Of a stretch of DNA of 64,000 nucleotides, positions 27,525-56,960 are shown in pieces. The DNA is from a virus: positions 1-64,000 of the IMG/VR virus record IMGVR_UViG_3300045988_029408, one strand, 5' to 3'. How positions within the stretch are numbered: the stretch's first letter is position 1; each line of letters starts with the position of its first letter. A model generated the notes under the pieces. It was not told the origin of the DNA and did not search any database. It was given only the letters and a program-made list of their open reading frames with translations. The position numbers and the translations under genes are program-made.

Positions 27525-29556
27525 TAGATACGATGAACCTGCTTCTTATGGTTACATTAGTCAATATGTGCCAATACCGTTTGAAAAATTATACGCATTA
27601 GGTAAAGATTATGCAGACCAAAGAAAACAAGCAGAAAAAGAATTAGAAACAAATATTAGAAAATTTGGAGAATTTGTTTCACCTTCTAGTGTAGATACTT
27701 AGAATTATTATAACGCTTCCATAAAAGTTCTAGATCCATTAATACAAGAAGCATCCGCTAATCCAAGTGTTATGAAAAATGCAGATTTCCGTGCTAGATT
27801 GCAAAATACTATAAATAATTTAGATTATAGTTTATTGAGTCAATATCAACAATCTGCTGAAAATCTTAGACTTCGTGAATAGAATATAGCTAAATTACAA
27901 GCGGAAGGCAGATATAATAGAGACATGGATGATATTGATATAACTAATTGGAATACTAAGGATTAGGGAATAATGAATAATTTAAATCCTATTCGTTATC
28001 AATCAATTAGAGAGCAGGTAGAACCTTATGTAAACAACTTGCAAGATTCGTTCTTGTATAGTAGAGGCGGATATAATTGGATTGGCGTTGATGCAGATAC
28101 TGTAATAAGACAAGTAGATACCAATTGGTCATCCATACGCAATACCCCTATAGCAGAAGCTCATATAAAAGCTATGATGAAAAATGGTATGACCTTAGAG
28201 GAGGCTGAGAATGCTTTTAGAAATCAAGCTATGAATGATGCATTAGAATATGTTAGAAAGAAACCTGTAGTAGATCCATATGCTATGGCTGAATATTAGA
28301 ATAGAGCTGCTATAAGATTAGCACAAGCTAGAAAAGGTAGTTAGGGTAAGCCTTCTGGTGCTGTGTTAGGACTTAGTGATATGCTAACTGGATAGTACTT
28401 GAAGCATCGTCAAAACATATTCAATAGAACTTTATCTAACGATAGTAGAGACGAACTATCAGATCCTAGTTTCCTTCAGAAATATCAAAAACTTACAGAA
28501 GAATCCTAGATTAATATAGACAATCTTACTAATCAAATTATGAACAGCAATCCTAAATTTGCACAAGCTGTAGAACTAATTAAACAAACTCTTATTGCTA
28601 AAGGACACCAAGATTCTGAAGAATTAGATCAAGTCGCGTTTCAAGCTGCACTACAATCTCCTGTAGTTAGTAATAAAGATAGAAATAAAATAAATTCTGC
28701 CATATAGTAGTATGAAGAATAGCATCAAAATATGATAAAAGAAGCAGAGGGTAGAGCCATGCAAAAAGCTTTTAATAAAACATTACAATTAGATCCTAAT
28801 GCAAATCCTTTTAGTAACTTTAGAATGTACGTTGATGGTGGAGAGTATATGTACGACGAAAAGAAAGTACACGATATGTGGGAAGATGGGTTAAGAATAA
28901 TTACACAACCAGTTGGACCGAATTTAAATCAAAATATGTTAAATAGCTTATTTGGATCTAATAAAAAAGTAAATGAAGAAGTAGGTTATATTATAGATCC
29001 TAATAAATTAATATCTCCCAGAAGCATTGTATTAGATAATCCTTATGTTACAAGCCTTGTAGAACAAGCTGGACACAAAATTAATGATATTAAAAATATG
29101 CATCTTGATAGAGATACTTGGGGTCAAGATAATTTTGATATAGAAGAAAGAATAGCCAAAGGTGATTTTGGTAAAGTAGCTATCGACAAGGTAGAAGGCT
29201 ACATAGAACAAGGCAATACTAAAGGTTTACTTGTTAGTGTGAATGTACCTTATAAAGATATAGAAAACGCTTATACCTCTTGGTGGAGAATAGAAAATCC
29301 TAAAAATACTTTAAAAGACTATGGTTTTACTGTATCGGGAGCTCCAGAGGGAGCTGGAGAAGATTCCAGATGGTCACAAGGATACGTTACAGTAAGGATG
29401 GTTTTGGGTACTAGTGATAGTGATGTTGATAAAATTATGACAAATAGAAGCTATTAGAAAGAAACTGGTACGACAAATACAAAAGAAATGTAGATACAGC
29501 AAGATGATGCGTTAATGAATTAGATAAATAACTGGATTCCCGGAATGGGATTTTAA
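27517..29556 (+). CDS. Hypothetical virion protein (679 codons)
   Basis: ATG 27517 (ATGGTTAA overlap). Frame-1 pieces are joined across 13 TAGs. TAA at 29554-29556. Confidence 0.75.
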
Positions 29557-29568: not shown

Positions 29569-32500
29569 ATGTCATACATAGATTTATAGAACGCTACAAA
29601 AAATCCGTCATTATACAGAAATAACAGCATTGGATTTCTGGATAAGGCTTACTATGAAAATAAGAACACCTCAGATTGGGCAGCAGATTATGATTTCATA
29701 GATTGGGCTTAGGACGCAACTAGAGATTATTATAGAAGTTTACAAAAAGGTTAGATGTAGACTTCTCAGGATAAAATGACAGTTAATAAATAGAACATTA
29801 ATGATTCTTAGAAACTGTTAGAGTTGTATGATCAATTAGATCAAGTTGATTCTAAAGACCAAGTAGCTATTATTCAGAATGAAATAAGTAATATTACGGA
29901 TTCTATGCGTAAGAATGGTAGTTGGTCATATTAGGCAGACCCTAATAGAGACCAATTACAAGGTATCATAAATGATAACCAAAAACAATATGACGAAAAT
30001 TATAAACAGTATTTAGGTGATTTAGAAGAACTAAATTAGTCCTATAAGAACTATGATATAAGTCAGTACTATACAAGAAAGAGTAATGATGCTACCGCTG
30101 GATGGGGTAATTTTTTCTATAAAATGCCATCAACTATGGGCACTAGCAACACTAGCGCCCTGTATTAGACTACTAGTATGTTAGCAGGTTGGGGAGGATT
30201 CGTAGCAGGATCTAAATTAGGAGCAGCAATTGGAGCTGCTGCTGGACCTGTTGGAGCCGCAGCTGGTGCTGTATTAGGTGGTATAATTTCTATTGGCGCA
30301 GCTCAATTATTTGGCGGAATAACCTCGCGTGAGAATGAGTCCCACATGGAAGCATTTAATGGGTATTCTGAAAAAGTATAGCAACTAGCTGAAAAGAGAA
30401 ATGTAGATCTACAACCTGTGATAAATAATACTAAGCAGCAATTAGCTAAAAAAGGTGTAGACGTTACTTATTTAAACGATAATGAAATAATACAAGCGGC
30501 ATTAGCAGATGGCGATATCATATCAGGTTCTTCAGAATTTGATCAGATAGCTAAAGAAGCATATCTTGGAACTAGAAGAATATATGAGCAGAATAATGCA
30601 CTTGGGTTTGGAGAAGTACTATCCGATTTATCTTATTTTATACCGTTGGGTAAATATCTAACAGGTACTGCAAAAACTGTTGGTAAATTTGCATATAAAA
30701 CCATAGGTAGTCCATTTAAACAAGCAATGGCTAACAGAATGGCACAAGGATTACAGGTTGCAAATCTTGGCTCCAACCTAAGAAAAAAAGTAATAGCTGA
30801 CAAACTTTTTGATTTTGTAACAGGTTCTGTATGGCGTAGCGCAGTGGAAGCGTCAGAAGAAGGTGCACAAAATGTAATTAATAAGAAGTATATGAACGAT
30901 GAGTATGCAGACGATTATGCAAATTCATCATTTTATGATGCGTTGATAGATGGTCAATTGATTGAAGATACTGTAGACAATTTGTGGCTTAGAGCTAAAA
31001 CTTTAGGAGCTGCTTTTAACATTAACCACGAATATGAAAACGATGCACAGCTATTTGAGGAGATGATGGGTGGTGCACTATTGCCATTCTTTAGTCCACA
31101 AGGTATGGTCGGTTCTGCTTTAAATGCTAGAAAAACATTCAATGATATTACTCAAAGTAAAAGAGTTGGAGATTATGTTGCTACAGCGTTGATGCAACAA
31201 GACGAGATTAACCGGAATTCTGATTTTTATAAAAAGATAAGGGAAGGTGTGAATAATGGCACTTATCTTGATATGTTAGACAGAATTAGTAATATGTTAA
31301 AACAAAAAGGATCTGATGGAAAAACTACGCAATACAATTTGGACACTACTGTTTTAACAAAAGATGGCTCTATTCCTAAAGATACTGATATTGACGAGTT
31401 TATAAACGAGTAGAGAGAAGAGTATAATAATTTGATTTCTCACAAAAAACAATCAGCTAAACAATTGAATGAATTGAATTTGGACGTAGAGGATGAAGAT
31501 TTATTGCTAGCTCTTTCATGGAATGCCAAAACTGAACTTTCTAAAGCTATGGCTTTGAAAGCAAAAGAAGGTTTAGTTGCCGGAAACAATGCTATTACTT
31601 TGTTAGAAAATGAAGATTTTAAAAACAAAGCCAAACAGCTTTTGAAGAAAGATAATTTGACAGATGCACAGTTGTTACAAATAGCTACTCTTTTAATTGA
31701 TAAACAAGTTCAGCAATATTATGACCGTTTAACAGATTAGTCAATAGCGGAAACACAAATTAAAGCTGCATTAACACAAGGTAGAATAAGTAAATATACC
31801 GGGTTATTTGATGCTACAAATAGTTTGAATCAAACATTGTCAGAGAATAGAAAATCTAAGAAGCGTATAAAAGATAATATCAGTAGACTAGCTAAAGAAT
31901 TAGATGTAACAGAAGATGCACTTAACGAATTGGATGAACGATTGATCGGTGATACTAAACTGTTTAAGGGTATTCAAAATAATGCTAAAAATAGAGGTGT
32001 ATTAAATATAATATCTCCACTACTACAAGAGAAATCTGATAAACTACAAAGTACTGATAAAGAATATATATCTCAGCAGATAGCTAAATATAGAGAAACA
32101 CAACACATACAAAACAAATTAGCAGATGCCGTTAATGAAGCCTCTAGAGCACACAGTGAAGATGTTAAAGAAATTGATGAAACAAAGTCTCCTAAACAAT
32201 TAGAAGATGAAGTTACAGCATTGCAAGACGCTTAGGTTACAGAACAACGGCAGTTAATAGAGCAAGACATAAATAATACTATATCACAGTTTGAAACTTT
32301 ATTAAGTTCTATACCACAAGGAAGTGTATTACATAACATCGTTGATGAAGTAAATAAAGGTAGAGATCTTGTAGGTACAGATGCTTTATCTTATGCTAGA
32401 TATCTTAAAAACTTAATGAACAAGTTATCTAAGAGATATGCAGATAAAAAAGAAACCGAAGGTGTATCTGATCAAGATAAACAAAATTTAGATAAGCTAC

Positions 32501-35500
32501 AAAAAGCGGCTAAACACTTAGGTGATCAATTAACTAGGTTAACAGATTTGGTAGATGAGGATAATGCTAGAATATAGAGACACAATCCTAATTTTCCAAG
32601 TGATTCTACTGTGTGGTTTGATGAAAACGGAGATAGATATTCTTTTGATTTTGCAAATTCTGAATACTCTGAAAAAGAAGGATTATTGTTACATGGTAGA
32701 AAAATAGTACAAGATTCGGAAAAAGATAGAATTAATGAATAGATAAATCTATTAGAAAAAGAACTTAAATTATTAGATAGTTAGGAAGATGATATTAGTA
32801 AGCAATCTGCCGATTCGTTGAGAAAAACAATATCTCAATTAAAAGATGCATTATCATCTATGGACTTTTCTAATCAATTTACTGTAAAAGCAGATGATCC
32901 ATTATTACAAACCCTTACTACCAAAGATAATCTAGGTAACACTAAACAATTTAGTAACAAACTTAAGAGATTGGTAAATTCGGTAAATCAAAGTATAGAA
33001 GCTAATAAAAAATCTAGAAATAGAAAAAGAAGTATAGATTCTGTAGACGGTGATACTTTTGAATTTAATCTTGATAATGAAACTGGTAAAAAGCACGGTC
33101 CATTACACCAATAGGATCTAATAGAAAAAAGTAAAGACAGACCTTTAATGATTAAAGGGTATCCTTTGAATAATAGTATGGGAGCTAGAATATCTACTAT
33201 GCTAAGCAATCCTTACTATGCTAGTAAATTCTGGAGAGGGTTTATTACTATGCCTTATCAATCTTCTGATGAAGCTAAATAGGAAATAAGCAAAGATTTC
33301 GCAATACTAAAGAAATTCGGTCGTACTTTAAACAGATATAAAGCTATTGATGATTTTAATAAGATAGGAAAACAGATAGCATATCTTAGAGAGCAAGGTA
33401 AAGCTACGGACGATATAATAGAAAATATAAATAAATTAGCTAATGGTGAAATAGATAGTGTTACTGTAGGGTTAGCTAAACTAAGCAAAGATGACTACGA
33501 TAACATAGTATATGCTCTACCTGTAAGAATTTATTTCAATCAGAATAGAGTTGGTAACAAATGGTCTTATGTGGTAGGTGCAGACTTTGCAGGTTACGCT
33601 TACTCTACTGAACCTTCTAAAGCTGAGCTTGATTCACGTTCAGAATTAATACATAATTTGTGGTATAATTATAAAAAGGTAGAAAAGAAAGAAGATGTAG
33701 AAGGATTGGAAACCGAATCTTCTAAACCAGAATATACCAATAAAATAGGATTCCAACCTGGAGATATGATTGTAACAAATGGGGGATACAATTATCAAGT
33801 TACGACAATGGTAAATCCTAATCTTAATATTTATCAAAATGAAGCTGGTTAGACAATGACATCTAAAGAAATAGATGAAAAATATGAAGGTGAATTACCA
33901 GAAGCAATAACTAAAGTGTCTGCACATTTGGATGAACTTGTGCAATTAGCTAAAGAGATTGGCTACAGTAATGTGAATGTTAAATCTCTCAATGAACCTC
34001 TTAGTAATGAGCGACAGAGTACTACCAAATTGGCTCACTTACTCAAAGGTTTAGCTAAGTATGCAGATGGATTGGTAGACTTACATAGTACGTTTATACC
34101 GAAATATGTTATACCTACTTTAGGTCAAGCTGAAAAAAGAGGTACAAAAGTACAGAGTGCTAATACTGAAAGAGCTAAACAATTACTATCTTTTGCTCAA
34201 AAGTATTCACCAGAATTGTTCTTATCGTATAAGAACTATCAGGATGATAATAATCTTACGCCTATAGTAGAAGATACCGTACAGGAAGCTTTAAACAACA
34301 GATGGTTTAATGGTAAAAATTCATTAAGTATTGAATTGAACGGTGAAGTTGTAAGTACACTGGACACTTAGGATAATAGAGATTTGTTAGTTAGAATAGG
34401 TAATACTATTGAAAAATTAATTAGAGATAGCCACGATTCACAAGAATTTATGGATAAGCTAGAGATTCTGGGTTACAATTTTAAGAAAAATGGTAATTCT
34501 GAGGAGGGTAATCGTATAATATCTCAATATTTTGACAATAGAAGATTCTCAAGATTAAGTAGACCTACTAATGTAATGCAAGCTATTACTATGGGTACTG
34601 CTGAGCCTCTGAATAATATAGATTATAATAATTTTAATCGTGTAGCTAAACACGAACAATCTAAATTAAATCAAATTCAAGCATTGGGTTTAATCAAAAA
34701 TTCCGATGGTCAATATGTATTTTCTTTAGTAGATTGGTTAAAGCGTAACGCATAGGATGAAGAGTCAGCAGAAGGTAGATAGCTAGAATCAGAAGTAAGA
34801 AAGTAGGAACTTCAAACTGAGCAAGAAAGTTTACAAAAAACTGTAAGATCAATTAGGAAAAAAACAGAACTGATTAAATTTATTGGTGACAATGAAGAAT
34901 TACTTGGTAAAGAATTGTATGATCAACTTGTACGCGTTAATAGAAAAGGAGAATTTGTATTAAAATACGATAATGCTGGAGCTACCAAATCACACATTAT
35001 TGCTAAAATCAATGAAGTGTATGATTAGAAAATAAACCAAGTAAATGCTCAATTAGAAAAAGAACTTGAAGAAGAAATAAGTAAAAATGAATTTGAAGGT
35101 AAAAAAGTATCTCCTGTAATTTTTGGTTATGGTTCATATGATTCAGAAGTAGGTTCTAACATCGTGTATTTTAACAGTAAAGGTGAAAAAGTACTGGTAA
35201 AGGATGCTAACGGTACTCCTGGTGCTATTTACCTCATAACTCCCTCTTTCTTATCTTCTTCTAGAAGACACACTATTGTGCACTTAAATCCTAAAAGATT
35301 TGATAGAACAACTGCTAAATTCTTAGCTTCTATACTTAAAGGAATAAATGACGGAAAATATAATTTAAGTAGTTATGCTAGAGATATAAATGTAGAAGGA
35401 TTTATTATAGACACAGATATGTCTGTTAAGCAATTATTAGATACTTTTATATATACTGGAACAGAAGCTATAGCTAATAATCCATCGGACAACAATTATG

Positions 35501-38500
35501 CTAGATTGTTGTATGTGGATAAACAAGGGGTCCATTTTGGATAGCAGTTACTTAACGAAAATAATTTTGAAGAATTAATAAATTTTATAATTCAAAATAA
35601 AACATATCGCATAGACAGAGAAAAATTAGCAGGTTCTAGTGTGTTCGGTAATAATTTAAAAGTACAGGACTAGAATGGCAATATTCTTTTTGACCACAAA
35701 GCGGATGAAGTTTATTCTACAATACTTATTGATGACGGTATTGTATTAACAGATTTAAATAGAACATCAAGTGCTATTACAGTTAAACCCAGCGTATATG
35801 TAAATTATAAGAAAAAGGTAACATTTGTTAGTTCTGCTTAGAGGACTCAAGACAGTGGTACTTCTGCTGAAGCTAAACAAAGATTAGGAGAAGAAATAAA
35901 CTCTGATCAATTATACGACGAAATGACCAATCAAGAAAGTAAAGGTGGCATAAAAGAAGCACAAAAATATATTGAGAACTTCTTGAAAGGGTTTAAAGAT
36001 CGTATAAACAGTTTTGCTAAAGATGGCAAATTGCAACCTGGAAAATACAAAGTAGCTGTGTATGGAATGCGTAGCAAACGGATTACCGCTACGTACGATG
36101 CTGATTTATCAGCAGATACTGATACTGGTCAACTTAGTATAGCTATAAGTGAACAACCACAGTTTATAGCTAGATTAATAAAAGCTCTTATTAATAAAAA
36201 ACAAGTTCAATTAGTACTTGCAGACGAAGAAGGTAAGTTTGTACAAATAGACGGTAAAGCTATATTCTTTGGTAGAGGTTTTGAACATACCGATTTTGAC
36301 ATAGATACTAAACAAACATCATCCCAATCATCTGAGCAAGGAAATTTGTTACAGCAATTAGTTGAAGCTATGCAGTAGTTGGTATCTAATTCTAATACTG
36401 TTCCACAACAACCAGTTTAGTAGGTGGTTCATAATTAGCCTCAAACTAATTTACCAGTTGGATATAACGGTTTTAATACCCCTATTGAGAATCTTCCAGT
36501 ACAACCAAAGACGGCTAGTGAAACAACTGTAAAATTTGAAGATGAACCAGCTGAAGATACTAAAGTAAGTATACAAGAGGTTGGAGACGATTTAAAAATG
36601 TCTTTCAATGGAATTACTGTTCAAATACCAAAAGATAGTAGTAGCAGTGATTTGGAAATAGCTTTATCTTCACAAGAAGATATAACAGATGAAGATTATG
36701 ATTCTTTTATTTCTGCACTAGAAGAATATAAACAAAAACCTGAAACTAGTGTTGAAACTCAAACAGAATTGAAAGGTCTTAATTTGAGACCTACTCCAAT
36801 TTCACAGTTTGCTACTCCAATACAGGAAAAACCATAGTTACAATCTGTATAGGAACTGATAGATTTCTTAAAGACAGGGTCTTCTACTGATAAGAACAAC
36901 GCAAAACGATTAGAAAATCTTAGAAACTCTGAAAATATAAATACAGCTAAAGATATTATATCTGGAGCGTTAGCAATATGGGGTGTACAAAACAAACTAT
37001 ACAGTTCTAGATCGGAAGCGTTGTTTGATGATAATATAGGTAAATTAGCTGATTAGTTTGCTAGAGAACTGGTATATCAAGATGGAGTTAATACAGGCGC
37101 TATATTTGACTTCTTAGACCAACATGTGTAGAAAGAGGATTACGATTCCGCTTTAGATAGAGTAACAACTATATTGGGTAAAGATTTTGATTTCTCTTTC
37201 TTACCAGAAAGTAAAAGAGTGTGGGATAAAGTTAGAGGTGCTCAGATTTATGTATTTGGAGAATGTGCAGCATCTGGTATACGTTTGTACAGAGATGCTA
37301 AGCTTAATAAGATTGCTAGAGGCTCGTTCTATCATGAAGCTTTCCATAGAATTAGTCTATTTGTTCTTTCTAAAGAACAAAGAGGTAAGATGTATAATGA
37401 TGCACGCAATAAAAATACAGATCTCGCGTTTGCTTCAAATTAGCAGATAGAAGAATATTTAGCAGATAGATTTGCTGAATTTGTAATAGAAAGTTCTCAG
37501 GAGCATCCTGATAAATATTACGAAGGTAATATCTTCAGCAAAGTGTTTCAACATATTGCAGACGCTGTAAGAAATATAGTAAGGAAGCTTTCTGGTAAAA
37601 ATATAAATCCTAATTATAGTAATCTTGACAAATTGTTTAAAGATATGTATTCTGGTAGATTTGCATATGCCAAAGCTACTAAAAACAACATAGAAGAGTT
37701 TGAAAAGATGTACAGTAAAGCTCCTGTGTATTCTGGTTTCAAGGTAAACGGAGTTACTTTAGCTGAAGACGCAATCCAATATAATGAAATAATGCGTGAT
37801 ATGCTAGGTAAATTAATTTATAACTCTGGTATATATACAAATACAGATGGTAGACTATCTATAAATACCAACGCATTAAAAGCATCTTATCAACATGATA
37901 TAGCAACATATACTAAAGCCGTCATTGAGTTAGATAAACAATTGCGTAATAAAAAAATTGATAAAAACTTAAGCCGATTTAGTGATGACGATATTGCTAT
38001 AGCTTAGGCTAAGATGGTAAGACTTATTAATGTTTATAAAAATATCGTAAGAGACGATACTTGGGATCAATGGGCTGGAATAATTCGTAATTTTGTAGAA
38101 CGTCAATTTAACCTTGTCCAAGATACTTCTCACAATCCTAATAAAGTATTAAAAGCTGATATTGAAGAAGATGTTGAAATTACAGAAGATGGACAAGATG
38201 AATTACAAGAGTACGGTATAGATGTATTAGGATTTTCAGACTATCGAGATAGTTATATGAGAGATATGTATAACAGTATGGACGCTAGTATGAAAATGCT
38301 ACTATGGTCTATAACTGATTTAGATCCTACAGATGCAGCTACTGCTAAATATACGCCAGATGGTATACTCAAATTTGCAAATGTAAGAGATTTATATACT
38401 AGAATAGTACACGCTATAACTAATTCTAATAGTGTAGAAGATATGTTGAACAAACTGTATTCGGCAGCTAAGACACAAATGGAAGAAGAAAATAGTTCTA

Positions 38501-41500
38501 CTATGATGTAGGTATATCATATACTTAGTAATGAAAACACTAATAGTGCTTTATTGAACAGATTCTTTACTGACTTTGTTAAGTATATTCATAATTTTGA
38601 AACTCATTCTTACACTACTACTGCTAGAAACATAGGTTCAAATGGCGAATATAGATATGGAGCTACTACTAAGAACGGAAGTTTAGATGCAATCCAAAGT
38701 AAACTAGACAATAAATGGAAAGGATCTATGATTGTTGCGCTTGATATCATTTCTGATAAATTAAACAGTGTAGCTACTACTAGTGAAGCTGGCAAGTTAT
38801 TTAGAAATATGATAACTCCGCTAAAATAGGCTATGAACAAATTGAACATAGAAAACTTAGAGTCTATAAAAGACGTACTTAGAGAAGCAGATAAACTTTA
38901 TCAATTTGGAACTATTACTGGCGATTTATAGCAAGATGCTGTAGCTTGGCAGAAAGCTATGCGTAATGCATCTAAAAGTGGTAAGGTTGGTAAAAATTTG
39001 CTTTTACAACCTTTAAATAAGTTAAATACATCTAATGTTTCTGAATTTAGACTTCTAGAATCTTCCAATAAACGTTAGCAAGGAGTATATAAGAAGTTAG
39101 ATGAGATGTTTACTGAAAAAGGTATTCTTACTTAGTTATCTCAAATGTTTGGTTCTTATATTAAGTCTATACCATCCACACAATCTCAAAAAGGTCCCAG
39201 AAATACCAAAATATATTCAATAGGATAGTATAATTTCATAACTAGAACTTTTGCCATACTTGCTAACACTAAAGAATGGGTTGATAAGATGTTGAATAAT
39301 ATTTATAATTCTCATTCTGTGTGGTTAAGTACACTAAAAAATTTAGGTGGAGCTAAACAAGTACAAGTACACACAAAACTTAGTACAGTATTAGATGATG
39401 AATGGAATGACTCTGTAGCAGATAAAGAAGTAACAGAACTAGAAGATTTGACAAACAGGTTTATATCCATATGGTCAGGTAAACATGTTACACCAGCGTT
39501 GGCTAATAAAAGATTTGCTGCTGATATTGAAGGCATACCGATATTTGAAAACATAATCAATGATAATTTAGATATAAATCCTAAAGTAATAGATGTATTT
39601 GTTGGTTATTTGGCAGATGAAATTATGGCTATATCAGATGCTAGATACACTAGAGATTATTTCATTGAAAAGTTGAACTAGGCAACTAATAGCAATTACA
39701 CTATTGATTCGTTCTCAAAATTGTCCTCATTGTAGTAGGAACAAATATTTAAAAATAACCCAGAAGCTGCTAAGTTACTTAGACTATTAGTAAAAACGTA
39801 TCATTACGTAGAAGGAGAGCAGCAATGGTTATACGATGAAGTTAATGATAGATATTACAGAAGAGCGTTCCATATAGATTTACGTTCTGGTAAAAAAGGT
39901 CCTAGAGGATACGAATTTAGGCACTTTAAAGATATAGGTAAATCTATAAATCTTTCTTCTAACGTGGTGCAAAAAATATCTTCTAATATGTTCGATACAG
40001 ATTCTCGTCAAAGTTCTATAGATTATGTTTATAATATGATAAACCGAGAAAGTATCAGAAAACAAATAAGAAGCATGTTAAATGATAATATTGCATACGC
40101 TATCGTTAAACTACAACAATTAAAAGCTATTATAGTAGATGATGCTGGTAATATAACAAGTAATCGTTACTTGCCTTCAGATTTAATTAAAAAATATATT
40201 TATGGTAAACAATCTGTTAATGTAAACGAATTAAGCGGTAATGATTATTATAGAGCTATTGGTTCTGCTGTAATACAAGGTATGTCAGATATATCAGAAT
40301 TTGAGAAACTATGTCATGGAGATATTGCGTATCATAAAAATATTGACGGTGTAACTAAACGTTATTCAGGTATTGTTTCTACAACTTCTCTTACTTCAGA
40401 GAAAGGTACTATGAGAAACGTGTTTGACGAAGAAGATAGATTATTCGATAGTAACACATATAATTCTGTTACTTTGAACACCACAATGGTTGTAAATCAA
40501 GCTAAGTATAAAGGGGAAGCATACAGAGCTCTTGGGCTATCTGAGAACATGGTTAAAATATATTTGGAAGATAATAATATAAAAGTAAATATTGACACTT
40601 CTGACGTATTAGATGCTGATGGTAACATAAAAGATAATTATCGTAAAGCTAAATTGATAAATCGGTTACTGCAATTTAGAGAAGAACGACGTTTGAAAGT
40701 AATGATCAACGGAGAACCAATGTCTGATGCATAGTTATTAGATGTTGCAGTAAAAGATTTTGAAAACAGATACGAAGGTTATCTTAAAAACGACCCATCA
40801 GATGCTCAAAGTTGGGTTACCAGTCAAATGTTTAGAGCTTTACAATAGCGAAAAGGGGCGTGGAACGATGTATCTGAAGCTATATATAATCTACTTACTT
40901 ATTATGACAAATTCGGATCTGATAAGCTTACTCCTAGAACTATAAGGCTTATTTAGGATAATATATGTAAAGTGCTTAATATAAATTATGACGAATTAGT
41001 AAAAAAAGCTAAGGCATACGATGCTAATAAAACTAATTTAAACAGTAAAGAAGTGCGCGATTATAAAGGGTGGATTTTTGGTATTGCTGATAAATTCAAA
41101 TTTGAATCGCCATCTCTTAAGTATATTTACTACGGATACGATTAGGGTAGAATGGATGGACTTACTACTCCAATTTATGATAAATCTTCTTATAAAGTAT
41201 TATGGAAGATTGAAGTAGAAGGACATGAAATACAACAGTTATACGATTTTATGCAAGATAGTAATGTAGACGTGGTTAAACAAGAAACTGCCGTTAAATC
41301 AGGAGGTTTACCTAACTTTGAATTGTTCGATTTAAACGGTAAGGTGGATAGAGCTGCACTAAATGCTTCAGTAATTCAATCGCAATACTTTTCTTTGTTA
41401 GGAGACCAGCTTAATACAGCTTCACATCACACAAACGACGCTAATCTATTGACTCAATTTATGAAAGTGGCAATGATGAACACAAATAAAGACAGACGAT

Positions 41501-44500
41501 ATAGAGTTAATGGTGTTACAGTTGATGGTCAAATGCTTCAGACATTCTATAAAGCGATTCTAGATGAACTTACTAGAAGAGGGTCTGTTAAATTTAACAA
41601 AAAATGGGGTATAAACGATAACGGAGTTGTTGATAAAAAAGCTTTTATGAAGTCTTTATAGACCATGGCTCAAACTGAGAATCTTCCAGCTGAAACAGTA
41701 GCTGCTTTCCAAGTCGATGAAAACGGTGAATTTAAAATACACCCAGCAGCAATGCCAAATATTGCTTGGATAATGTCTCGTATTCTTGCTCAAATGGGTG
41801 ATACTATAATAGATACTGTTACTCCAGGTAAAGCTTTGTATCAGGTAACTAGTGTTGGTTATGATAATTTCATGAATTTGAAGCAACATGCTGACAAACA
41901 TCTATATATGCCTGGGGAAATTGATTCTAACGGCAATATTCATCAAAGAATGCAAGTTAGATTGTCTATAAATTTCTTTGACGATGTAATATAGGAAGCT
42001 AAACGTAATAAAATTAAAGGATACGATTTTGATAACTTTGAAGATCAGCGCAGGTTCATACTAGATAATAAGGAATTATTTGCATTATCATATCGTGTTC
42101 CTACACAGGGGTAGAATTCAACTATACCTGTTGAAATAGTAGATTTAGTACCTAGTCTTAATGGTAGCATGATCCAATTCCCTTCTGGTATTACTGCACT
42201 TACTGGTTCTGACTTTGATATTGATAAAATGTTCTTAGCTAGATACAATTATGAAGTTGTTAATGGTAAAATGCAAAAAGTTAAGTATGATATAAATGAA
42301 GTGATGAATAATATAAACAGCACCGATTCCAAAAAATTACAAAATTTCTTATTAGATATGTATCAAGGTGTGTTGACTTCTTTAGATCATGCGTTGGCTA
42401 CTAGTACTCCATTGGACGTTGCTACAGGACCTATTAGTACATTTGCCAAGAAAGAACTAGAAGAATATTCTGGAGGTAAAGCAGACGGATTACCTGATAA
42501 TTTAGACGGATTTTATCTTAACCCAGTATTCCAAACAAGGTAGAAAAAGCTTAATTCAGGGTCTGATGCCGGTATTGGTCCTATGGCGTTAAATAGTGTA
42601 TTCTAGTTCTTTGTTCAGATTGCTAAATTAGATATGCGTAAATTCCCAATTATTGAGCAATTGAGATTATAGAAATTAGGAGAAACTTTTGATAGATACG
42701 GTGAAGAAATATTGGATTCAACTTCAGGTCTTATTAACGCGTTTGTAGATGCTGCTAAAGATAACTATATCGGCAACGCTAATGTTAACGCTTATACTTT
42801 TGATGTAGTAGCTATGCTAATTGCATCTGGGTTTGGTAATGACACGTTTGCATTCTTAACACAACCTATCATAAAGGAAATTTCTGATAACTGGTTGACT
42901 TATAAACAAGGACTCATTGGTGTATCAGATTAGGAAAAAAGAGGTACATATTTTATGGACTCTGTAATAGAAGATTACAATGACAGATTAAAATCTTTAA
43001 GTGCTGAAGATACACCAGAAAAAGAGTATTCAGAACTGACCAAACACGATGTATTAATGGGCAATCTTAAACCTAAACATGACGCTAGATGGATTAAAGA
43101 TTAGCTTACATACGCAAGTATGTTTAGACAATTGTATGAATTAGCAAAAGAGTACCACAATGCTATTTCAAATGCTCAGATTGATACTAAGAAGTACGGT
43201 GTTAACATTAACCAATTACTTTCTTTTATTCAAGGTGTGAACCAATTCAACTCAGAATATAATATTGCATTTAGTAATCCTAGAGATATGTATGATAATA
43301 CGTTCTTAGGAGCTAAGTATACTAAGGGAGTTATGGGTATATTTGACACATTTAGTAAACTATTACCTGAATTTTCCAAAGTATATATTGATGCAGCTAA
43401 TGAACTTAGTAAAGAATGGGGTTTATATGGTAGACAAAGTAAAGAATTCCTAAGAGTGGTTGGACCTAAAATAAAAACTGTACTTTATTTGCCATTCTTT
43501 AATCAGTATATAATTGAGAGATTTGGCGGAAAAGCTTTAGCAAAGTTAACATATGGTGAAAATAGCGTTCCTGGAAGATATGAAGCTATTAAACGTAAAG
43601 CGTTACGTAGAGGTGAAGGAATAGACTTGTTCAACGCTGTTAAGTATAACAAACTTGGAGATGTCAAAGTTCCTCAATTCATGTTGGTTACACAACAGTT
43701 TAAAGAAGATTCTGACGTTAAAAATAATGTCCAGTTAGCTTTAAGTGAATTATTCAATAGCACTGATCCTGAAATAAAACAATGGGCTGAAGATTTTGCA
43801 GTTTATATGTTCTATGTATCTGGCGGTACTGATTCAAATGCTGGTGGTATTGTTAGAACTACAGTATACGATATTATTCCACCACAGTACTTAGCTAACT
43901 TAAGAGCTGGTGGAAAGACATTTAATTAGTATATTGCTGAAAATGTCATGGGTAGAACAACAGGTATGACTAATACTGAAAAAGACCAAATAATTAGCTT
44001 ATTGGCTGTATCTGATGACAATTATGTTCCTACTATATCTCCTAGAAATCACAAATATGTAATCAAAAGAGTTGTTGGTAATGATGTGATTACTATTACT
44101 AAAGGATCCAATTCGTTATTTAATAGAAGTACTAATACTTATAGTCCTTTTATTAAAATAACCACTTCTAATGGATATGACTTATATCGTCTTGGAGAAA
44201 AAGTGTCTTCTATTTCTAAAAAAACAGGTACAACATTTTCTAATCCCGTATATTATAAAGTTAATAAACTTGGATATAAGAGTAATAAGAGACAGTCGTT
44301 TGCTTTAAGAGCTGATGGTTACATTAGTGAAGACGGCACTATAAGGTCTTTACTGTGGTAGGATAATGATTTTAATAAATTGGGATTCAATAGTTTGAAT
44401 GAGAAAGAATAGTCTATTTATATGAATAATACTAATACTACTCTAGATAAGATAGATGATGCTTTAAGTGGAAGTATAGATTATTCTAAATATTTCAATT

Positions 44501-44901
44501 CTCAAAAAGCCAATGATGATTCTGAACAGCAAAGAGCTTTAGTAGATACTGTAGATGCTGTGTATTTTATAGCGGACAGTTCTTTCAGTTATCATTTGCC
44601 AGTTAGAGACTATGCTAGATTTAAAAATAAAGAATTTTATGTAATATCTATAGATTAGACTGAAATACCCACAGCAAATGGCTAGAAAATAGCAATCATT
44701 GGTGATTCTGCAAATACTGCTATAGAGATATACAAAAACAATTCTGATAAATAGATATATACGTTTGTAAATTATTTCGGCGAACGGTCTTCTGTATTTT
44801 AGGCGCTGTACAATTAGATAGGTGATGAGTTAAATAACAATAAAGAATCTGAGGATAGTGATTAGAAAGGTAGTGCTATTAAAGATAAATGTAAAAATTA
44901 A
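29569..44901 (+). CDS. Giant polyvalent virion protein (5,110 codons) with a two-barrel RNA polymerase DxDxD motif and an HExxH motif
   Basis: All 24 frame-1 track ORFs from 30178 to 44422 and every gap between them were read codon by codon. 67 in-frame TAGs and no TAA/TGA until TAA 44899-44901. Contains RVPTQG...GSDFDIDKM, HEAFH, and an N-terminal Gly/Ala zipper (30178-30330). Confidence 0.8.
37333..37347 (+). other. HExxH (HEAFH) zincin-like motif inside the giant ORF
   Basis: Context is GSFYHEAFHRISLF ... EEYLADRFAEF. Confidence 0.5.
42211..42225 (+). other. DFDID metal-binding motif (crAss-type virion RNAP signature)
   Basis: Reads gac ttt gat att gat. Preceded by YRVPTQG(TAG)NS...ITALTGS. 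Confidence 0.7.
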
Positions 44902-44906: not shown

Positions 44907-47900
44907 ATGACTCCGTTTTGTCCAAATTTTAGTAATAAACAAGTAAAGAAAGAGTTTGAAACTCTTGAAGATATGGTTGGAGAAAACCAAGCATATTATT
45001 TGTGGGATAAATATGAAGGTGATTATGCAAAAGCTTCTTCGGAGGCTTTTGCGCAATTGCGCAAACAAGTATATTCTAGACCTGACGCTAAAACCCCGTA
45101 GCAGTTTAGTAGTTCTCAAAGAATGGCATATATCATGCAACAGCTGTATCCAGAAATAGAACTGAAATTTGTAGAAGCCATAGAGGGTGGATATGCTGGG
45201 TCTATTGATTTAGATGCTATGCAAGCGTTGATAGATATGACTAAATCTGGAAAAGATACCATTCCCCACGAATATGCTCATTACTATGTAGAAATGTTTT
45301 CCAATGCCCCAATAATTAAAGAAGGTATTGAAACATTTGGTGGTAAAGAACAGTTAGTACAAGCTGTAGGTATTAGGGTGGCTAATATGAATGGCGAAGC
45401 TAGAAGTTGGTGGTAGAAATTCAAAGATTTTGTTAAAAAACTGTTTGATAACAAATATGCTAAACAAGCTTTGCTTGCCGAAATTACAGATAGTTTTTTG
45501 ATTCGTAAACAGCTAGGAGATACGTAGAAAGTATCTGGAGTGTTTCATCAAGAAATACCATCTGTGGATTAGGTAAGAAAGATACTACAAAATTTAGCAA
45601 ATACTGTCACTTTTGATGAAGTAGAACATAGGTTTACAGATAAAAAAACTGGTAATATATTAACTTCTGTTACAGGTTTTAAAGAAAAAGCCAATTATGA
45701 CAATTATGATGCGTCACTAGAAGATCAAACGTAGGCTAAAATATCTTAGGAAGCTAGAAATAATGGTACTAATATACATGCTGTTTTAGAAGGAGTATTA
45801 AAGGGCAATTTAGATATACAACGATTTACAGATAGTATGTCTAGGGAAGCTATAAAAGGCTTAATTGATGTAGTTAACCACATTAAACAAAATTATGACT
45901 TTGTTGCATCTGAAGCAGTATTAGCTGACCCTAAACATGGTGTTGCTGGTATTGCTGACTTAATATTGAAAGATAAGAAAACAGGTGAGTATGTATTAAT
46001 GGATTTTAAAACTAAATTAATAAATTATAATAATAAGAAAAACGACAAAGGATATCTGGTCAATGAAAAAGGATCAAGATTGAGAGGCTTTTTGTTTTCT
46101 ACTAGTAAAAAATTTAGACTAAAATCTGAAAAAGACGGCTACGATTTTCAGCTATCTGCGTATAAGTATATACTATAGCAAAATGGTATACCTATTTCTA
46201 AAGTGGGAATTATACCGATTGTGTATTCCGTTGATAAAGGTAAGATAAGTAAAGCAGGATTAAGTACTGTGTTTGGTACTAATGAAGAAGCTAACAGTCA
46301 AATGAAGAAAGAAGGTTTCTATCAGATAACACAATCACAACAAACTAAATTTGATGTTGAATATAATATATTTGGTGATAAAACTATTTTTGGAAATGAT
46401 ACTGAAAAAGTGGATCAAATGCTCAAAGAACTTACTAATTTGATGAATACTATATAGAAAAAACTAAGTATTCAAGAACAGGTTCTTAAGCTACGCAGAA
46501 GTTATCGCACTCAAGCTAAAGATGCTGCAAACCTGTTAGAAAAGATATCAAACATGACAGAATTAGATGCCTTACTTTAGTACACTAATTATGCAGCTGA
46601 TCATTTAGGTAGACTCAATAAACAGATATAGGAAAGATATAAACAAGGGAAAGATGCTAAATGGGATTTAAATGTATTATAGAGCTATAGAGAAATAGCA
46701 TCGTCTTATGATATAGTAAATAGAATATCAGGATTGGCTAATAGGTATTCTGATATATTTGGAGACGATAATGTGAGAGCTATAGAAACTGCTTGTAATA
46801 AATTATAGTAGGCACAACGAAACATATTAGATGCTTGTGATACAATTGGTTCTAAACTATATTTAAATGAAATTCTACCATACGTAGGTATAGTTAGATA
46901 TAGAATTAAAAACGAAGAAAGAAAGAAGTATATAGAAAACAACCCAAAAGGTCCTAACGAATCAGATAAAGATTTTAATTTGAGAGTTCAACAACATATA
47001 GAACAGTATTTAAGAGATAACAGTAATGATATAGAGTATCAAACTAGAGAATGGTTAGATGCTCAAAGACATGTAGCTGAATCTGGGTTTGAATGCAATT
47101 CTATATTAGCTAACTTTGGTACAGTTTATGAATCTAAAGATCCTTTTGTACAAGCTATAGTACAAAGATTCGATTTTGCAATTAGTGATAAAGAACAGCG
47201 AATGATTAAATTAAGAGCTTAGATAAGTAAAGTACTAAAAGAATACAAAGCAAAGTATGGTACTACCAATTTTAGTGACCTGAGAAAGGTGTTTGATGAT
47301 TTTGTAGAAGTAACTGACAATGGCGTTATTTACTTGGTTAATCCAATTGGTGGAGAGTATTTGCAAGCATCTAAAAAAGAACGTAACAGAATATTCTCTG
47401 ATGGATCTTTAACTTTTTAGGAACAGCAAGCAGCTTGGGAAGAATGGCTTAGAACAAACAATCCTATATTTGACATTGAAGGTTACAATAGACAAATGGA
47501 TGAAGATTTAGCATCTATATTAGAGCCATTGGATGAAGAAAAAAGAAAAAAAGTTATACAAAATGCTAAACTTAGTGCAGATAAAAGAAAATCTTGGTTT
47601 TCTATGTATAAAGACGGTACTATTACTGCTGATATAAGATAGGAATTAGATGATTTGACACGAGATTTAGATGAAAAGTATCGTAAACCTAATCCTGCTA
47701 TATATAAAAATGCTAAGTATGTGGAGATGTTAAAATACAAAGACTCTAATGACCCTAAATGGTAGTTGTATAAATTATTTTTAGATCTTATAAAAACATA
47801 TGATTATTCAATGCCACGTTCATTACGTCTTAACTTTAGGTTACCTAGCGTTATTAAGAGAGGTGTTGAAAGAGTAAATAGCGATGGTGTAACGTCAACA

Positions 47901-49574
47901 ATAAAGAACTACTTATAGACAGAAATGCTACCTATGCAAGACGATGATATCCGTGGTACTTTTGTTGACGAAAATGGTAAACGCATACGGCAAATTCCTA
48001 TGTATTATTATGCAGAAGGGATTATAACAGAAGATGAACAATCTTTTGATTTACCTACTATCTTTTATAAATGGGCTGATGCTGCTGATACTTACTTAGT
48101 TAAACGTGATTTGGAGTCTTTAATACTGCAAACATAGGCATTGTTAGCTAGTAGAGAAACTCAGGATAATGTTATTTCTTTGTTAAAAGGTAATAAAAAT
48201 AAAGTATCCAGTCATAAAGTTAATACTTAGAATTAGTTTGATTCTTGGGTGGATTAGGTGTTCTATGGAAATAGAGTACAAGATATGGGTAAAATTAAAT
48301 TACCGTACTCTGATAAAGTAATAGATACTGCTAAATTAATAAAATGGATAGTTGGTATGTCTAATAAGAGAGTAATGTCTGGTAATATGGTAGCAGCACT
48401 CAATAATATATTGGTGGGTGAAGTAAATCAATTAGAAGAAGCTGTTGCAGGACAGCATACTACGAAAGAAGACTATGCTAGAGCTACTAAAGAATTTGCT
48501 AAGAACTTTTACGGTTTACTAGCAGATGTCAATAAAGCTGTACCACAGAATAAATTAAATTAGTTGGCTGAATGGTTTGGTATATTTGAATCAAATAAGA
48601 ATTTATCATTAGAAGGTTTTATGAGACATTCTGTTAGCGATATCTTATATACTCCGAATAAGATGGGTGAGCATGAGATGTAGATCAGATTCCTAACTGC
48701 TTGTTTGATGACTATGAAAGCTAAAGACGATAATGGTAAAGTAATAGGTAGTATGTATGATTATGTAACTTTTGATGAGAATAATTAGTTAGTAGTAGAT
48801 GATAAAGTTGCTAATTTTGATAAAATGTAGCAAAACTTATTTTCACTCAAGGTTAGGAAGGTACTAATTTCACTGCACGGTAATTATAGCGATAGAGCAT
48901 CTGTAGCTGCTGAATCTCAATGGTATGGTTGGATTGGTTTGTCTTTACGTAGATGGATTGAACCTACTGTAATGAGACGTTATCAAAAGAGATATTACGA
49001 TTCTGTGTTCGATACTGAAATAGGTGGTATGCATAGAGATTTTGCTTCTTGGCTGTTTAGAAATGAATATACAGCTGGTATGATAAATTTCTTTGCTACT
49101 AATATATTTAAAGCTAAACAACTTTAGATAGAGGTGATGAAGTGGAGTACTATGACCGATGACGAGAAGAGAAACGTAATTAAGTCAGCTATTGAATTTT
49201 CAGTTGCAGCTTTGAGCTATGCTATATTTGCTTTAATTAATCCTGGAGATGATGATGATCATGACTTTGGATAGGAAATATTGTGGGTAATAAAGTATTA
49301 GGCTTATAGATTATTTACAGATATGACTTTCTATGTCTTACCTACTTCTTTTACTAAGCTTTTCCAAGATCCTTTTCCAGTTATGGGTTATATAAACGAT
49401 ATACTTAAATTGTTTATGCAAATGTTTGATCCATTTGAAGAATATAGTACTGGTAAGCATTTGGTATCTAATAAATTATTAGATCAAGCTATTAGACTTA
49501 CTCCTGGAGCTAAATAGTTGGGTCGTATAGGTAATGCTTCTCAGGAAATAAACAGTTTCTTACATTAGCGATGA
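44907..49574 (+). CDS. Large virion protein (1,555 codons) with HExxH and PD-(D/E)xK-like motifs and C-terminal hydrophobic segments
   Basis: ATG 44907. Frame-0 track ORFs 45123 to 49323 are joined across 31 TAGs. TGA at 49572-49574. Contains HEYAH (45267-45281) and GIADLIL...YVLMDFKTK (45948-46016). Confidence 0.8.
45267..45281 (+). other. HExxH (HEYAH) motif
   Basis: Context is KDTIPHEYAHYYVEMF. Confidence 0.45.
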
Positions 49575-50148: not shown

Positions 50149-50153
50149 AACAT

Positions 50154-51155: not shown

Positions 51156-51157
51156 AC

Positions 51158-51973: not shown

Positions 51974-52019
51974 GTTTATATAAGTTAAAAGGCTAGAATA
52001 TATCTAGCCTTATTTGTTT

Positions 52020-52895: not shown

Positions 52896-52907
52896 AATCT
52901 GAAAATT

Positions 52908-54546: not shown

Positions 54547-54560
54547 TCTGTTTTAGTTTG

Positions 54561-54696: not shown

Positions 54697-54709
54697 GTTG
54701 AAACTATTC

Positions 54710-56880: not shown

Positions 56881-56900
56881 GATGATTTATTTTAATGATT

Positions 56901-56934: not shown

Positions 56935-56960
56935 ATTTATTAATAATGATCTACTTTATA

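What the first reader, a model, noticed from the sequence alone, without database searches (positions are those of the whole stretch)
29569..44901. A 15.3-kb uninterrupted ORF (5,110 codons) fusing a crAss-type virion RNA polymerase motif with a zincin-like motif
From ATG 29569 to TAA 44899-44901 I found no TAA or TGA in frame 1. All 25 gaps between track ORFs were read codon by codon, and there are 67 in-frame TAGs. Every other late-gene boundary in the window uses TAA or TGA, so this looks like one polypeptide rather than several genes.

It contains three recognisable parts:
- YRVPTQG...ITALTGSDFDIDKM (DFDID at 42211-42225). This is the DxDxD metal site of the two-barrel virion RNAPs known from crAss-like phages.
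- An HEAFH motif with a downstream EEYLADRFAEF (37333 onward).
- An N-terminal Gly/Ala zipper (30178-30330).

In characterised crAss-like phages the RNAP and neighbouring cargo proteins are separate, very large proteins. Here they appear fused. That raises the question of whether the HExxH domain autoprocesses the precursor.
Basis: partly seen in the sequence, partly recalled or inferred. Interest (0 to 1): 0.7.

Follow-up and report, generated by a model that had tools for sequence, protein, structure and literature searches.

The report
Giant recoded crAss-phage virion RNA polymerase gene
This is a real 15.3-kb gene of a gut crAss-like phage that reads the TAG stop codon as glutamine and encodes a 5,110-residue virion RNA-polymerase fusion protein, an arrangement that is already annotated and described for this phage family, so it is ordinary for its kind.

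Summary
Frame 1 from 29569 to 44901 has 67 TAG, no TGA and only the terminal TAA.

The frame is translated as one protein. Fourteen full-length contigs of the same species keep it intact. TAG columns exchange almost only with CAG/CAA and never with TAA/TGA. dN/dS is 0.04-0.10 along its whole length. Same-species genomes carry a tRNA(CUA) just outside the window.

The protein (579 kDa) has three main parts:
- an N-terminal part like crAss001 gp47;
- a conserved HExxH...EE module;
- a C-terminal two-barrel virion RNA polymerase like phi14:2 gp66 (E=6e-25, GSDFDIDKM aligned).

The next ORF is the gp65/gp49 ortholog.

The fusion is not unusual. RefSeq Suoliviridae genomes annotate single CDSs of 4,491-4,946 aa at this position, two of them with 38 and 55 in-frame TAGs. 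Public protein sets hold end-to-end homologs of 5,153-5,340 aa. The literature already describes fused "polyproteins" with a zincin-like domain, RNAP genes of up to about 6,000 aa, and a cleavage hypothesis.

The only modestly new point is that the HExxH module is an unnamed family lying exactly where other lineages split the gene. Self-cleavage remains untested.

The parts
29569..44901 (+). Giant ORF of 5,110 codons plus TAA; 67 in-frame TAG read as Gln; predicted protein 579 kDa
   Evidence: The frame is intact in 14 same-species contigs and in relatives at 45% and 34% identity. dN/dS is 0.04-0.10 in every 500-codon bin.
29569..31518 (+). Conserved N-terminal domain (residues ~1-650), function unknown
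   Evidence: 35-45% column identity among full-length homologs. Matches cr118_1 giant residues 215-588. Weak match to phrog_16692.
30148..30330 (+). Gly/Ala-rich uncharged hydrophobic stretch (residues 194-254), a candidate membrane-active segment
   Evidence: Present at the same position in L018, L002, P0008-P0011 and P0013. Absent from cr1_1, cr118_1 and crAss001 gp47.
35869..37068 (+). Poorly conserved, gappy, Q/E/S/T-rich linker (residues ~2101-2500) upstream of the HExxH module. Includes TAGs inside a Q-rich run (QQPV**VVHN*PQ).
   Evidence: Column identity 0.18-0.22 and gap fraction 0.11-0.24; sequence.
37069..38058 (+). HExxH module (residues ~2501-2830): HEAFHRISL at 37333 onward and EEYLADRF at 37450-37473. 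Predicted gluzincin-like metallopeptidase domain.
   Evidence: Motifs invariant in relatives and at least 90% conserved over 38 diverse sequences. AlphaFold2 model of the P0008 homolog has pLDDT 82. Profile hits crAss001 gp47 C-terminus at E=2.5e-29. hhalign gives 85.8% probability to the gp65-type zincin-like domain.
39076..44328 (+). Virion RNA polymerase region (residues ~3170-4920), homologous to phi14:2 gp66 and crAss001 gp50
   Evidence: PDB 6VR4 at E=6.4e-25; tblastn to crAss-like phages; profile hits to gp66 and gp50.
42211..42225 (+). DFDID catalytic metal-binding motif within TGSDFDIDKM
   Evidence: Aligned residue for residue with tgsdfdidkm of 6VR4. Invariant in all strains.
44907..49574 (+). 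Separate downstream ORF (1,555 aa, 31 TAG), ortholog of phi14:2 gp65, crAss001 gp49 and the cr1_1 2,007-aa CDS
   Evidence: BLASTP E=5e-115 to the cr1_1 CDS, 2e-25 to gp65 and 9e-23 to gp49. Its own HEYAH motif has no profile support.
27514..29556 (+). Upstream late ORF (680 aa, 13 TAG), homolog of the CDS that precedes the giant gene in cr1_1 and cr118_1
   Evidence: BLASTP E=7e-48 and 7e-23; conserved gene order.
49618..63536 (-). Replication module in the standard code with essentially no in-frame TAG: exonuclease, phosphoesterase, ATPases, primase, DnaB helicase, DNA polymerase
   Evidence: The DNA polymerase is about 70% identical to those of Suoliviridae Loutivirinae.

Best explanation
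The window comes from a human-gut crAss-like phage close to the family Suoliviridae. Its late (+ strand) genes are written in genetic code 15, where TAG means Gln. Its replication genes use the standard code.

ORF 29569-44901 is one gene. A phage tRNA with anticodon CUA, encoded just outside the window, lets ribosomes read its 67 UAG codons as Gln and make a 5,110-residue, 579-kDa protein. From N to C the protein contains:
1. a part equivalent to crAss001 gp47: a conserved N-terminal domain with a Gly/Ala hydrophobic segment, a long helical and variable middle, and a low-complexity linker;
2. a conserved HExxH...EE module;
3. the two-barrel virion RNA polymerase equivalent to phi14:2 gp66 and crAss001 gp50.

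By homology with those experimentally studied proteins (inferred, not shown here), the protein is packed in the capsid as cargo and ejected ahead of the DNA into the next host. There it transcribes the early genes, whose standard code needs no suppressor.

The HExxH module is most likely a zinc metallopeptidase. A less certain inference, at about 0.3-0.4, is that it cuts the fusion at its flanking linkers and frees the polymerase.
For: One translated ORF:
- 0 TAA/TGA in 5,110 codons, against 253 and 676 in the other two frames.
- The frame is intact in 14 independent contigs at 92-96.5% nucleotide identity, in L018 (45% aa identity end to end) and in MT835645.
- dN/dS is 0.04-0.10 in all eleven bins.
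- The standard-code relatives cr1_1 and cr118_1 have collinear single CDSs without any stop.

TAG = Gln:
- TAG columns alternate with CAG in 42 columns and CAA in 21, out of 78 alternative-codon occurrences, and never with TAA or TGA.
- TAGs lie inside Q-rich runs.
- tRNA(CUA) is present in five of five same-species genomes.
- Metaproteomic proof exists for crAss-like phages (PMC9523058).

RNAP: 6VR4 matches at E=6.4e-25 with the metal site aligned.

gp47 equivalence: the module profile hits the gp47 C-terminus at E=2.5e-29.

Virion cargo: gp47, gp49 and gp50 were detected in crAss001 virions by mass spectrometry (PMC10172136).

Module:
- It is conserved in 202 cluster representatives.
- Its HExxH lies 1,302-1,654 aa upstream of the DxDxD motif in 77 large representatives.
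- The model (pLDDT 82) shows a beta-sheet, then the HExxH helix, then a helix carrying the conserved EE.
Against: - No tRNA lies in the window itself. MT835473, whose DNA polymerase is 92% identical and whose late genes are also TAG-recoded, has none in 85.5 kb.
- The amino-acid identity of the suppressor tRNA was not established biochemically.
- The zincin assignment has no Pfam, PHROG or PDB sequence hit.
- Foldseek against the PDB gave nothing significant (best E about 1). Anthrax lethal factor, Zmp1/PPEP-1 and MATCAP appear only among the weak hits.
- The model is of a homolog (P0008, 64% and 51% identical to the two window segments), not of the window protein itself.
- Nothing here shows that the protein is cleaved, packaged or active.
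Confidence: 0.9

Rival explanations
1. The stretch is several adjacent genes. Some TAGs act as true stops depending on context, and translation restarts downstream in the same frame.
For: TAG probably still terminates at least one early gene on the other strand (62799-63536). One TAG (residue 2813, nt 38005) lies close to where crAss001 gp47 would end and gp66 would begin, and an ATG follows two codons later.
Against: - That TAG is CAG in one strain and is a Gln codon in relatives.
- No TAG column ever swaps with TAA or TGA.
- Everything stays in one frame with no spacers for 15.3 kb.
- dN/dS is uniform.
- TAG positions are not conserved between relatives, which have 26, 58 and 67 of them.
- Standard-code homologs are single ORFs.
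Confidence: 0.03
2. The giant ORF is an assembly chimera or mis-join of separate genes.
For: The sequence is metagenome-derived. Synonymous divergence between strains is uneven (pS 0.27-0.40 in codons 501-2000 against 0.05-0.15 elsewhere), which suggests recombination.
Against: - Fourteen independent contigs have the same 5,115-codon stop-to-stop frame.
- End-to-end homologs of 5,153-5,340 aa at 33-41% identity exist in public protein sets.
- Four RefSeq genomes have the same gene order.
Confidence: 0.01
3. The protein is one polypeptide that is never cleaved. The HExxH module is then not a self-processing protease. It would either cut host targets (cell envelope or host proteins) after ejection or be a structural metal site. 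The whole 579-kDa protein would act like N4's single giant virion RNAP.
For: - N4 gp50 (3,500 aa) works uncleaved and also has a conserved HExxH subdomain next to its polymerase (PMC13434306; motif seen).
- Drobysheva et al. also proposed peptidoglycan digestion.
- The module is just as conserved in lineages where the gene is already split before or after it, so there is nothing to cut there.
Against: - The module sits between two variable linkers at exactly the points where other lineages have gene boundaries.
- A 579-kDa chain must pass through the tail unfolded, which smaller pieces would make easier.
- Neither point is a test.
Confidence: 0.45

Closest known systems
Giant single CDSs of RefSeq Suoliviridae: cr4_1 YP_010112556.1 (4,491 aa), cr60_1 YP_010112422.1 (4,494 aa), cr1_1 QOR58537.1 (4,551 aa), cr118_1 QOR58373.1 (4,946 aa)
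   Same: Same gene order: about 600-aa CDS, giant CDS, 1.5-2.0 k-aa CDS, then an opposed replication block. Collinear homology covers the HExxH module and the RNAP. cr4_1 and cr60_1 also carry 38 and 55 in-frame TAGs.
   Different: Only 23-36% identical. The window protein is longer (5,110 aa). Its N-terminal Gly/Ala hydrophobic segment is not found in cr1_1 or cr118_1. These CDSs are annotated only as hypothetical protein, 'DNA helicase' or 'nuclear pore complex protein-like'.
phi14:2 gp66 virion RNA polymerase (PDB 6VR4), with neighbours gp67 and gp65
   Same: The C-terminal ~1,750 aa are homologous and the DFDID site aligns. The downstream ORF is homologous to gp65.
   Different: In phi14:2 the three proteins are separate (1,797, 2,180 and 1,421 aa). 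No part of the giant matched gp67. gp66 and gp67 lack the HExxH module. The zincin-like motif of phi14:2 is in gp65.
crAss001 gp47, gp50 and gp49 (virion cargo, 'RNA polymerase-associated proteins')
   Same: gp47 ends with the same HExxH module (HEAFH, E=2.5e-29). gp50 matches the RNAP part. gp49 matches the next ORF. All three were found in virions by mass spectrometry.
   Different: In crAss001 gp47 is a separate gene on the opposite strand from gp49 and gp50, and the gene boundary falls after the module. Here the two halves are one frame.
Code-15 (TAG to Gln) late-gene recoding in crAss-like phages (Yutin 2021 PMC7886860; Peters 2022 PMC9523058)
   Same: TAG-rich structural and late genes, TAG-free replication genes, and a suppressor tRNA(CUA) in the genome.
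   Different: Nothing of substance. This is another example.
Coliphage N4 gp50 giant virion RNAP
   Same: A giant virion-packaged, ejected RNA polymerase with a conserved HExxH subdomain beside the polymerase.
   Different: The polymerase core is of a different type: N4 is not a two-barrel enzyme (my own knowledge). The N4 HExxH region shows only suggestive similarity to the gp65-type domain (hhalign 54%) and none to the giant's module (2%).

Membership tests
crAss-like two-barrel virion RNA polymerase (phi14:2 gp66 type) | Significant sequence homology to gp66 (PDB 6VR4) | tested here: met
   phmmer E=6.4e-25 over gp66 residues ~950-1775; profile hits at 3e-22 and 2e-28.
crAss-like two-barrel virion RNA polymerase (phi14:2 gp66 type) | DFDxD catalytic metal motif aligned with that of gp66 | tested here: met
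   TGSDFDIDKM aligns to tgsdfdidkm. Invariant among 15 strains.
crAss-like two-barrel virion RNA polymerase (phi14:2 gp66 type) | Two double-psi beta-barrel domains in one polypeptide | not tested
   No structure was predicted for the RNAP region. The feature is only implied by the homology over the gp66 core.
crAss-like two-barrel virion RNA polymerase (phi14:2 gp66 type) | Packaged in virions and transcribes early genes | not testable with these tools
   Known for phi14:2 gp66 and for crAss001 gp47, gp49 and gp50. Inferred here.
Genetic code 15 late-gene recoding in Crassvirales | In-frame TAG abundant in late genes and absent from early or replication genes | tested here: met
   232 TAG in 15,964 + strand codons, against 6 in 4,398 - strand codons; those 6 lie in stop-to-stop extensions.
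Genetic code 15 late-gene recoding in Crassvirales | TAG is evolutionarily interchangeable with Gln codons | tested here: met
   CAG in 42 columns and CAA in 21, out of 78 alternative-codon occurrences; none is TAA or TGA.
Genetic code 15 late-gene recoding in Crassvirales | Suppressor tRNA with anticodon CUA | tested here: met
   Not in the window. Present in 5 of 5 same-species genomes, e.g. L228:7287-7361; Rfam tRNA 35 bits.
Zincin (HExxH) metallopeptidase, gluzincin type | HExxH on a helix plus a downstream Glu on a following helix, both conserved | tested here: met
   H96, E97, H100, E135 and E136 are at least 90% conserved in 38 diverse sequences. In the model they lie on helices 93-105 and 131-151.
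Zincin (HExxH) metallopeptidase, gluzincin type | Zincin fold recognised by comparison with solved structures or curated models | tested here: inconclusive
   No Pfam, PHROG or PDB sequence hit. Foldseek against the PDB has best E about 1, with lethal factor, Zmp1/PPEP-1 and MATCAP among the weak hits only. The beta-sheet plus two-helix topology is compatible.
Zincin (HExxH) metallopeptidase, gluzincin type | Zinc binding and proteolytic activity | not testable with these tools
   Requires biochemistry.
crAss 'zincin-like' domain of gp65 orthologs (Drobysheva 2020) | Profile similarity of the giant's module to the gp65, cr1_1 and cr4_1 HExxH...EFxAE region | tested here: met
   hhalign probability 85.8%, E=5e-6 over 83 columns. 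HMMER alone does not see it.
Suoliviridae (order Crassvirales) | Closest relatives and gene order match members of the family | tested here: inconclusive
   DNA polymerase is about 70% identical to Loutivirinae genera, and the best annotated-genome RNAP hits (after unannotated MT835645) are Suoliviridae, with identical synteny. No formal genome-wide classification was done.

The most novel reading that the evidence does not exclude
The HExxH...EE module is a previously unnamed metallopeptidase family found in 202 cluster representatives, with no Pfam or PHROG annotation. It always sits about 1,300-1,650 aa upstream of the polymerase catalytic site, exactly at the seam where different crAss lineages split the gene: before it in 9 representatives, after it as in crAss001 gp47, or not at all in 68. 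In this reading it is a cis-acting maturation protease that releases the virion RNA polymerase from its delivery domain during assembly or after ejection.
Probability: 0.3. Interest if true: 0.55.

Novelty: new member of a known kind. Interest (0 to 1): 0.2.

Why it matters
As a gene it adds nothing new in kind. It is one more divergent example of the giant, TAG-recoded virion RNA-polymerase fusion typical of Delta/Suoliviridae crAss-like phages.

Its practical value is for annotation. Standard-code gene callers shatter it into about 68 pieces, and existing RefSeq homologs are mislabelled as 'DNA helicase' or 'nuclear pore complex protein-like'.

The one lead worth following is the conserved but unnamed HExxH module at the junction between the delivery part and the polymerase. 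It is also present at the C-terminus of crAss001 gp47, a protein of a cultured phage. That makes the long-standing question of how the self-inhibited crAss virion RNAP is activated open to experiment.

Tried and rejected
- PHROGs and Pfam on five overlapping tiles gave nothing useful: only a weak phrog_16692 match and sub-threshold Pfam noise.
Q-substituted letters or TAG-free segments had to be used instead.
- The word-indexed homolog search found only fragments. A second search was swamped by the low-complexity part of P0002.
- The first structure prediction, with 4 rows, was unusable (pLDDT 48).
- A profile of the HExxH module against PDB sequences gave no hit.
- Foldseek against the PDB gave no significant hit.
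- No homology was detected between the giant's N-terminal ~2,400 aa and phi14:2 gp67.
- The downstream ORF's own HEYAH motif has no profile support as a zincin.
- Homology of the module to the N4 gp50 C1 HExxH domain is not supported and is only suggestive for the gp65 type.
- Yutin 2018 and the Nature version of Drobysheva 2021 are not held in the paper library.
- The suppressor tRNA search in the window, in MT835473 and in the first three genome-walking steps was negative. The fourth step found it.
- Context-dependent termination and mis-assembly were considered and rejected (see the rival explanations).
Full report
**Observation**

Frame 1 from ATG 29569 to TAA 44899-44901 contains 67 TAG, no TGA and no other TAA. 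The preceding in-frame TAA ends at 29556. The other two forward frames of the same stretch carry 253 and 676 TAA+TGA codons, so the open frame is not chance.

**Context**

The window splits into two blocks.
- The + strand genes at 1-49574 form long ORFs only if TAG is sense. They hold 232 in-frame TAGs, and all end in TAA or TGA.
- The - strand genes at 49618-63536 are intact in the standard code and essentially TAG-free. They encode exonuclease, phosphoesterase, ATPases, primase, DnaB helicase and DNA polymerase.

The DNA polymerase is about 70% identical to those of Suoliviridae (Loutivirinae) reference phages and 92% identical to the unannotated record MT835473. This bimodal use of TAG is the published code-15 pattern of crAss-like phages (PMC7886860; PMC9523058; bioRxiv 10.64898/2026.08.21.746148).

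**Is it one translated gene?**

Several independent lines say yes.
- A scan of IMG/VR returned 15 contigs of the same species (92-96.5% nucleotide identity over the ORF). All 14 that span it keep an identical 5,115-codon stop-to-stop frame.
- A relative 45% identical end to end (L018) has 5,036 codons and 26 TAGs. MT835645 has 5,338 codons and 58 TAGs.
- Across the strains, 104 codon columns contain TAG and 69 of them vary. The alternatives are CAG (42 columns), CAA (21), a few GAG/GAA/TGG, and never TAA or TGA. So TAG behaves as a glutamine codon everywhere in the ORF. Several TAGs lie inside Q-rich runs.
- dN/dS against the 14 strains is 0.04-0.10 in each of the eleven 500-codon bins.
- The standard-code relatives cr1_1 and cr118_1 have collinear single CDSs of 4,551 and 4,946 aa with no internal stop.

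Mis-assembly and context-dependent termination are therefore rejected.

**The decoding agent**

No tRNA lies in the window. I walked around the roughly 100-kb genome in same-species contigs, using four further scans. A tRNA with anticodon CUA turned up in five of five genomes in the unseen part, for example L228:7287-7361 (Rfam tRNA, 35 bits; U1 start; encoded CCA). ARAGORN's 'Pyl' label reflects only the anticodon.

**What the protein is**

The protein has 5,110 aa and a mass of 579 kDa.

*C-terminal part.* Residues ~3170-4920 are homologous to the phi14:2 gp66 virion RNA polymerase (PDB 6VR4, E=6.4e-25), with TGSDFDIDKM aligned to the catalytic tgsdfdidkm. They are also homologous to crAss001 gp50.

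*Downstream ORF.* ORF 44907-49574 (1,555 aa) is the ortholog of phi14:2 gp65, crAss001 gp49 and the 2,007-aa CDS of cr1_1. So two of the three transcription-block proteins are fused here, not all three.

*HExxH module.* Residues ~2500-2830 form a well-conserved module, HEAFHR[IV]SL ... EE[YFL]xA[DE]xF. It is invariant in all close and distant giants examined and at least 90% conserved over 38 diverse sequences.

An exhaustive HMMER scan of 1.84 billion representatives found 202 members.
- 96 of the listed representatives are at least 1,500 aa long and carry the module's HExxH; of all listed hits, 82 exceed 3,000 aa and 13 exceed 5,000 aa.
- In 77 of the 96, a DxDxD motif follows 1,302-1,654 aa downstream (median 1,422).
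- In 68 of the 77 the module lies more than 1,000 aa from the N-terminus, which is the fused form.
- In 9 of the 77 it lies within 500 aa of the N-terminus, so the gene is split before the module.
- A few proteins end just after the module.

crAss001 gp47 is of that last kind. The module profile hits its C-terminus at E=2.5e-29, with HEAFH at about residue 2157 of 2,341. The giant therefore equals a gp47-like protein plus a gp50/gp66-like RNAP in one frame. No similarity to phi14:2 gp67 was detected.

**Is the module a zincin?**

Pfam, PHROGs and PDB sequence searches are silent. An AlphaFold2 model of the closest complete homolog (P0008 residues 2550-2859, 64% and 51% identical to the two TAG-free window segments) built on a 38-row alignment is confident: pLDDT 82, with the core above 90. 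It shows a beta-sheet, the HExxH helix, and a later helix bearing the conserved EE.

Foldseek against the PDB found nothing significant (best E about 1). Three HExxH gluzincins (anthrax lethal factor, Zmp1/PPEP-1 and MATCAP) are among the weak top hits. Foldseek against BFVD matched the second chunk of giant proteins from about ten Crassvirales reference genomes (E down to 2e-12) and a 'large polyvalent protein' domain (E=2.4e-3).

hhalign links the module to the gp65-type 'zincin-like' region of phi14:2, cr1_1 and cr4_1 with 85.8% probability (E=5e-6). The window's own gp65 ortholog has an HEYAH motif, but it has no profile support.

I conclude that the module is probably a gluzincin-like metallopeptidase domain of an unnamed family. 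Fold membership is inconclusive and activity is untested.

**Layout and the cleavage idea**

The full-length alignment shows:
- a conserved N-terminal domain (residues 1-650);
- a variable helical region;
- a conserved middle (~1200-2100);
- a gappy low-complexity linker (2101-2500);
- the module;
- a second weaker stretch (3001-3200);
- the RNAP.

The Gly/Ala hydrophobic stretch (194-254) is shared by the closest clade only. The module thus lies between two variable segments that coincide with the alternative gene boundaries of other lineages. That fits a cis-acting protease but does not show one.

The module is equally conserved where the genes are already separate. N4's uncleaved giant virion RNAP also carries an HExxH subdomain (PMC13434306). 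So a role against host targets, or no cleavage at all, is about as likely.

**Comparison with what is known**

RefSeq Suoliviridae genomes from three subfamilies annotate a single giant CDS followed by a 1.5-2.0 k-aa CDS:

| Genome | Giant CDS (aa) | Next CDS (aa) |
|---|---|---|
| cr1_1 | 4,551 | 2,007 |
| cr118_1 | 4,946 | 1,667 |
| cr4_1 | 4,491 | 1,803 |
| cr60_1 | 4,494 | 1,473 |

The giant CDSs of cr4_1 and cr60_1 contain 38 and 55 in-frame TAGs. Public protein sets hold end-to-end homologs of 5,153-5,340 aa at 33-41% identity.

Drobysheva et al. [quoted passage not shown] They also state that a zincin-like domain might activate the RNAP or digest peptidoglycan. The 2023 review calls RNAP genes 'up to ~6000 aa' a hallmark of these phages (PMC10136315). 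crAss001 gp47, gp49 and gp50 are virion cargo by mass spectrometry (PMC10172136).

**Verdict**

The fusion and the self-processing question are already in the literature, and the arrangement is normal for the family. This is a new, divergent member of a known kind.

The residual lead is the unnamed HExxH module at the seam of the fusion, which is shared with crAss001 gp47.

Noticed in passing
window 62799-63536 (- strand): This early-block ORF ends in TAG under the standard code. If TAG is read as sense it runs on for 35 codons and overlaps the start region of the DNA polymerase gene. So TAG may still act as a stop for early genes, as the temporal recoding model expects.
   Followed up: no
L024/L025 (MT835473.1) compared with window 29569-44901 and 60601-62679: MT835473 shares a 92%-identical DNA polymerase with the window phage, but its giant RNAP ORF (4,444 aa, 61 TAG) matched at only about 26% identity. 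This looks like exchange of whole modules between lineages. No tRNA at all was found in its 85.5 kb although its late genes are TAG-recoded.
   Followed up: partly
window about 31069-35568 (codons 501-2000 of the giant ORF): Synonymous divergence among same-species strains is 2-4 times higher here (pS 0.27-0.40) than in the rest of the ORF (0.05-0.15), while dN/dS stays near 0.07. This suggests recombination with more distant alleles in the N-terminal and middle part.
   Followed up: no
L228:7287-7361 and the equivalent sites in L265, L275, L283 and L240 (outside the window): The suppressor tRNA(CUA) lies about 13 kb before the window's first base in the circular map. Some strains also carry tRNA-Arg(TCT) or tRNA-Ile(GAT) near the replication block (L042, L052, L079, L226), and others carry neither.
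   Followed up: partly
L307 (phage N4 gp50 residues ~2190-2350) compared with L001, L019 and L022 (gp65-type proteins): The N4 virion RNAP C1 subdomain motif (TLIHELVHAST ... LNEFMAWGLAN) resembles the gp65-type crAss motif (TILHELVHAATV ... IDEFFAEAFAN). hhalign gives only 54% probability. If real, it would link the accessory domains of two otherwise unrelated virion RNAP systems.
   Followed up: partly
L021, L023 and other RefSeq crAss-like records: The giant RNAP-containing CDSs are annotated as 'DNA helicase', 'nuclear pore complex protein-like protein', 'DprA-like' or 'exonuclease V'. These product names are misleading and will propagate.
   Followed up: no
window 44907-49574, residue 121 of the ORF: The gp65/gp49 ortholog has an HEYAH motif near its N-terminus. 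It does not align with the HExxH of gp65, cr1_1 or cr4_1, and cr118_1, cr60_1 and crAss001 gp49 have none. The zincin-like domain seems to come and go in this protein family.
   Followed up: partly
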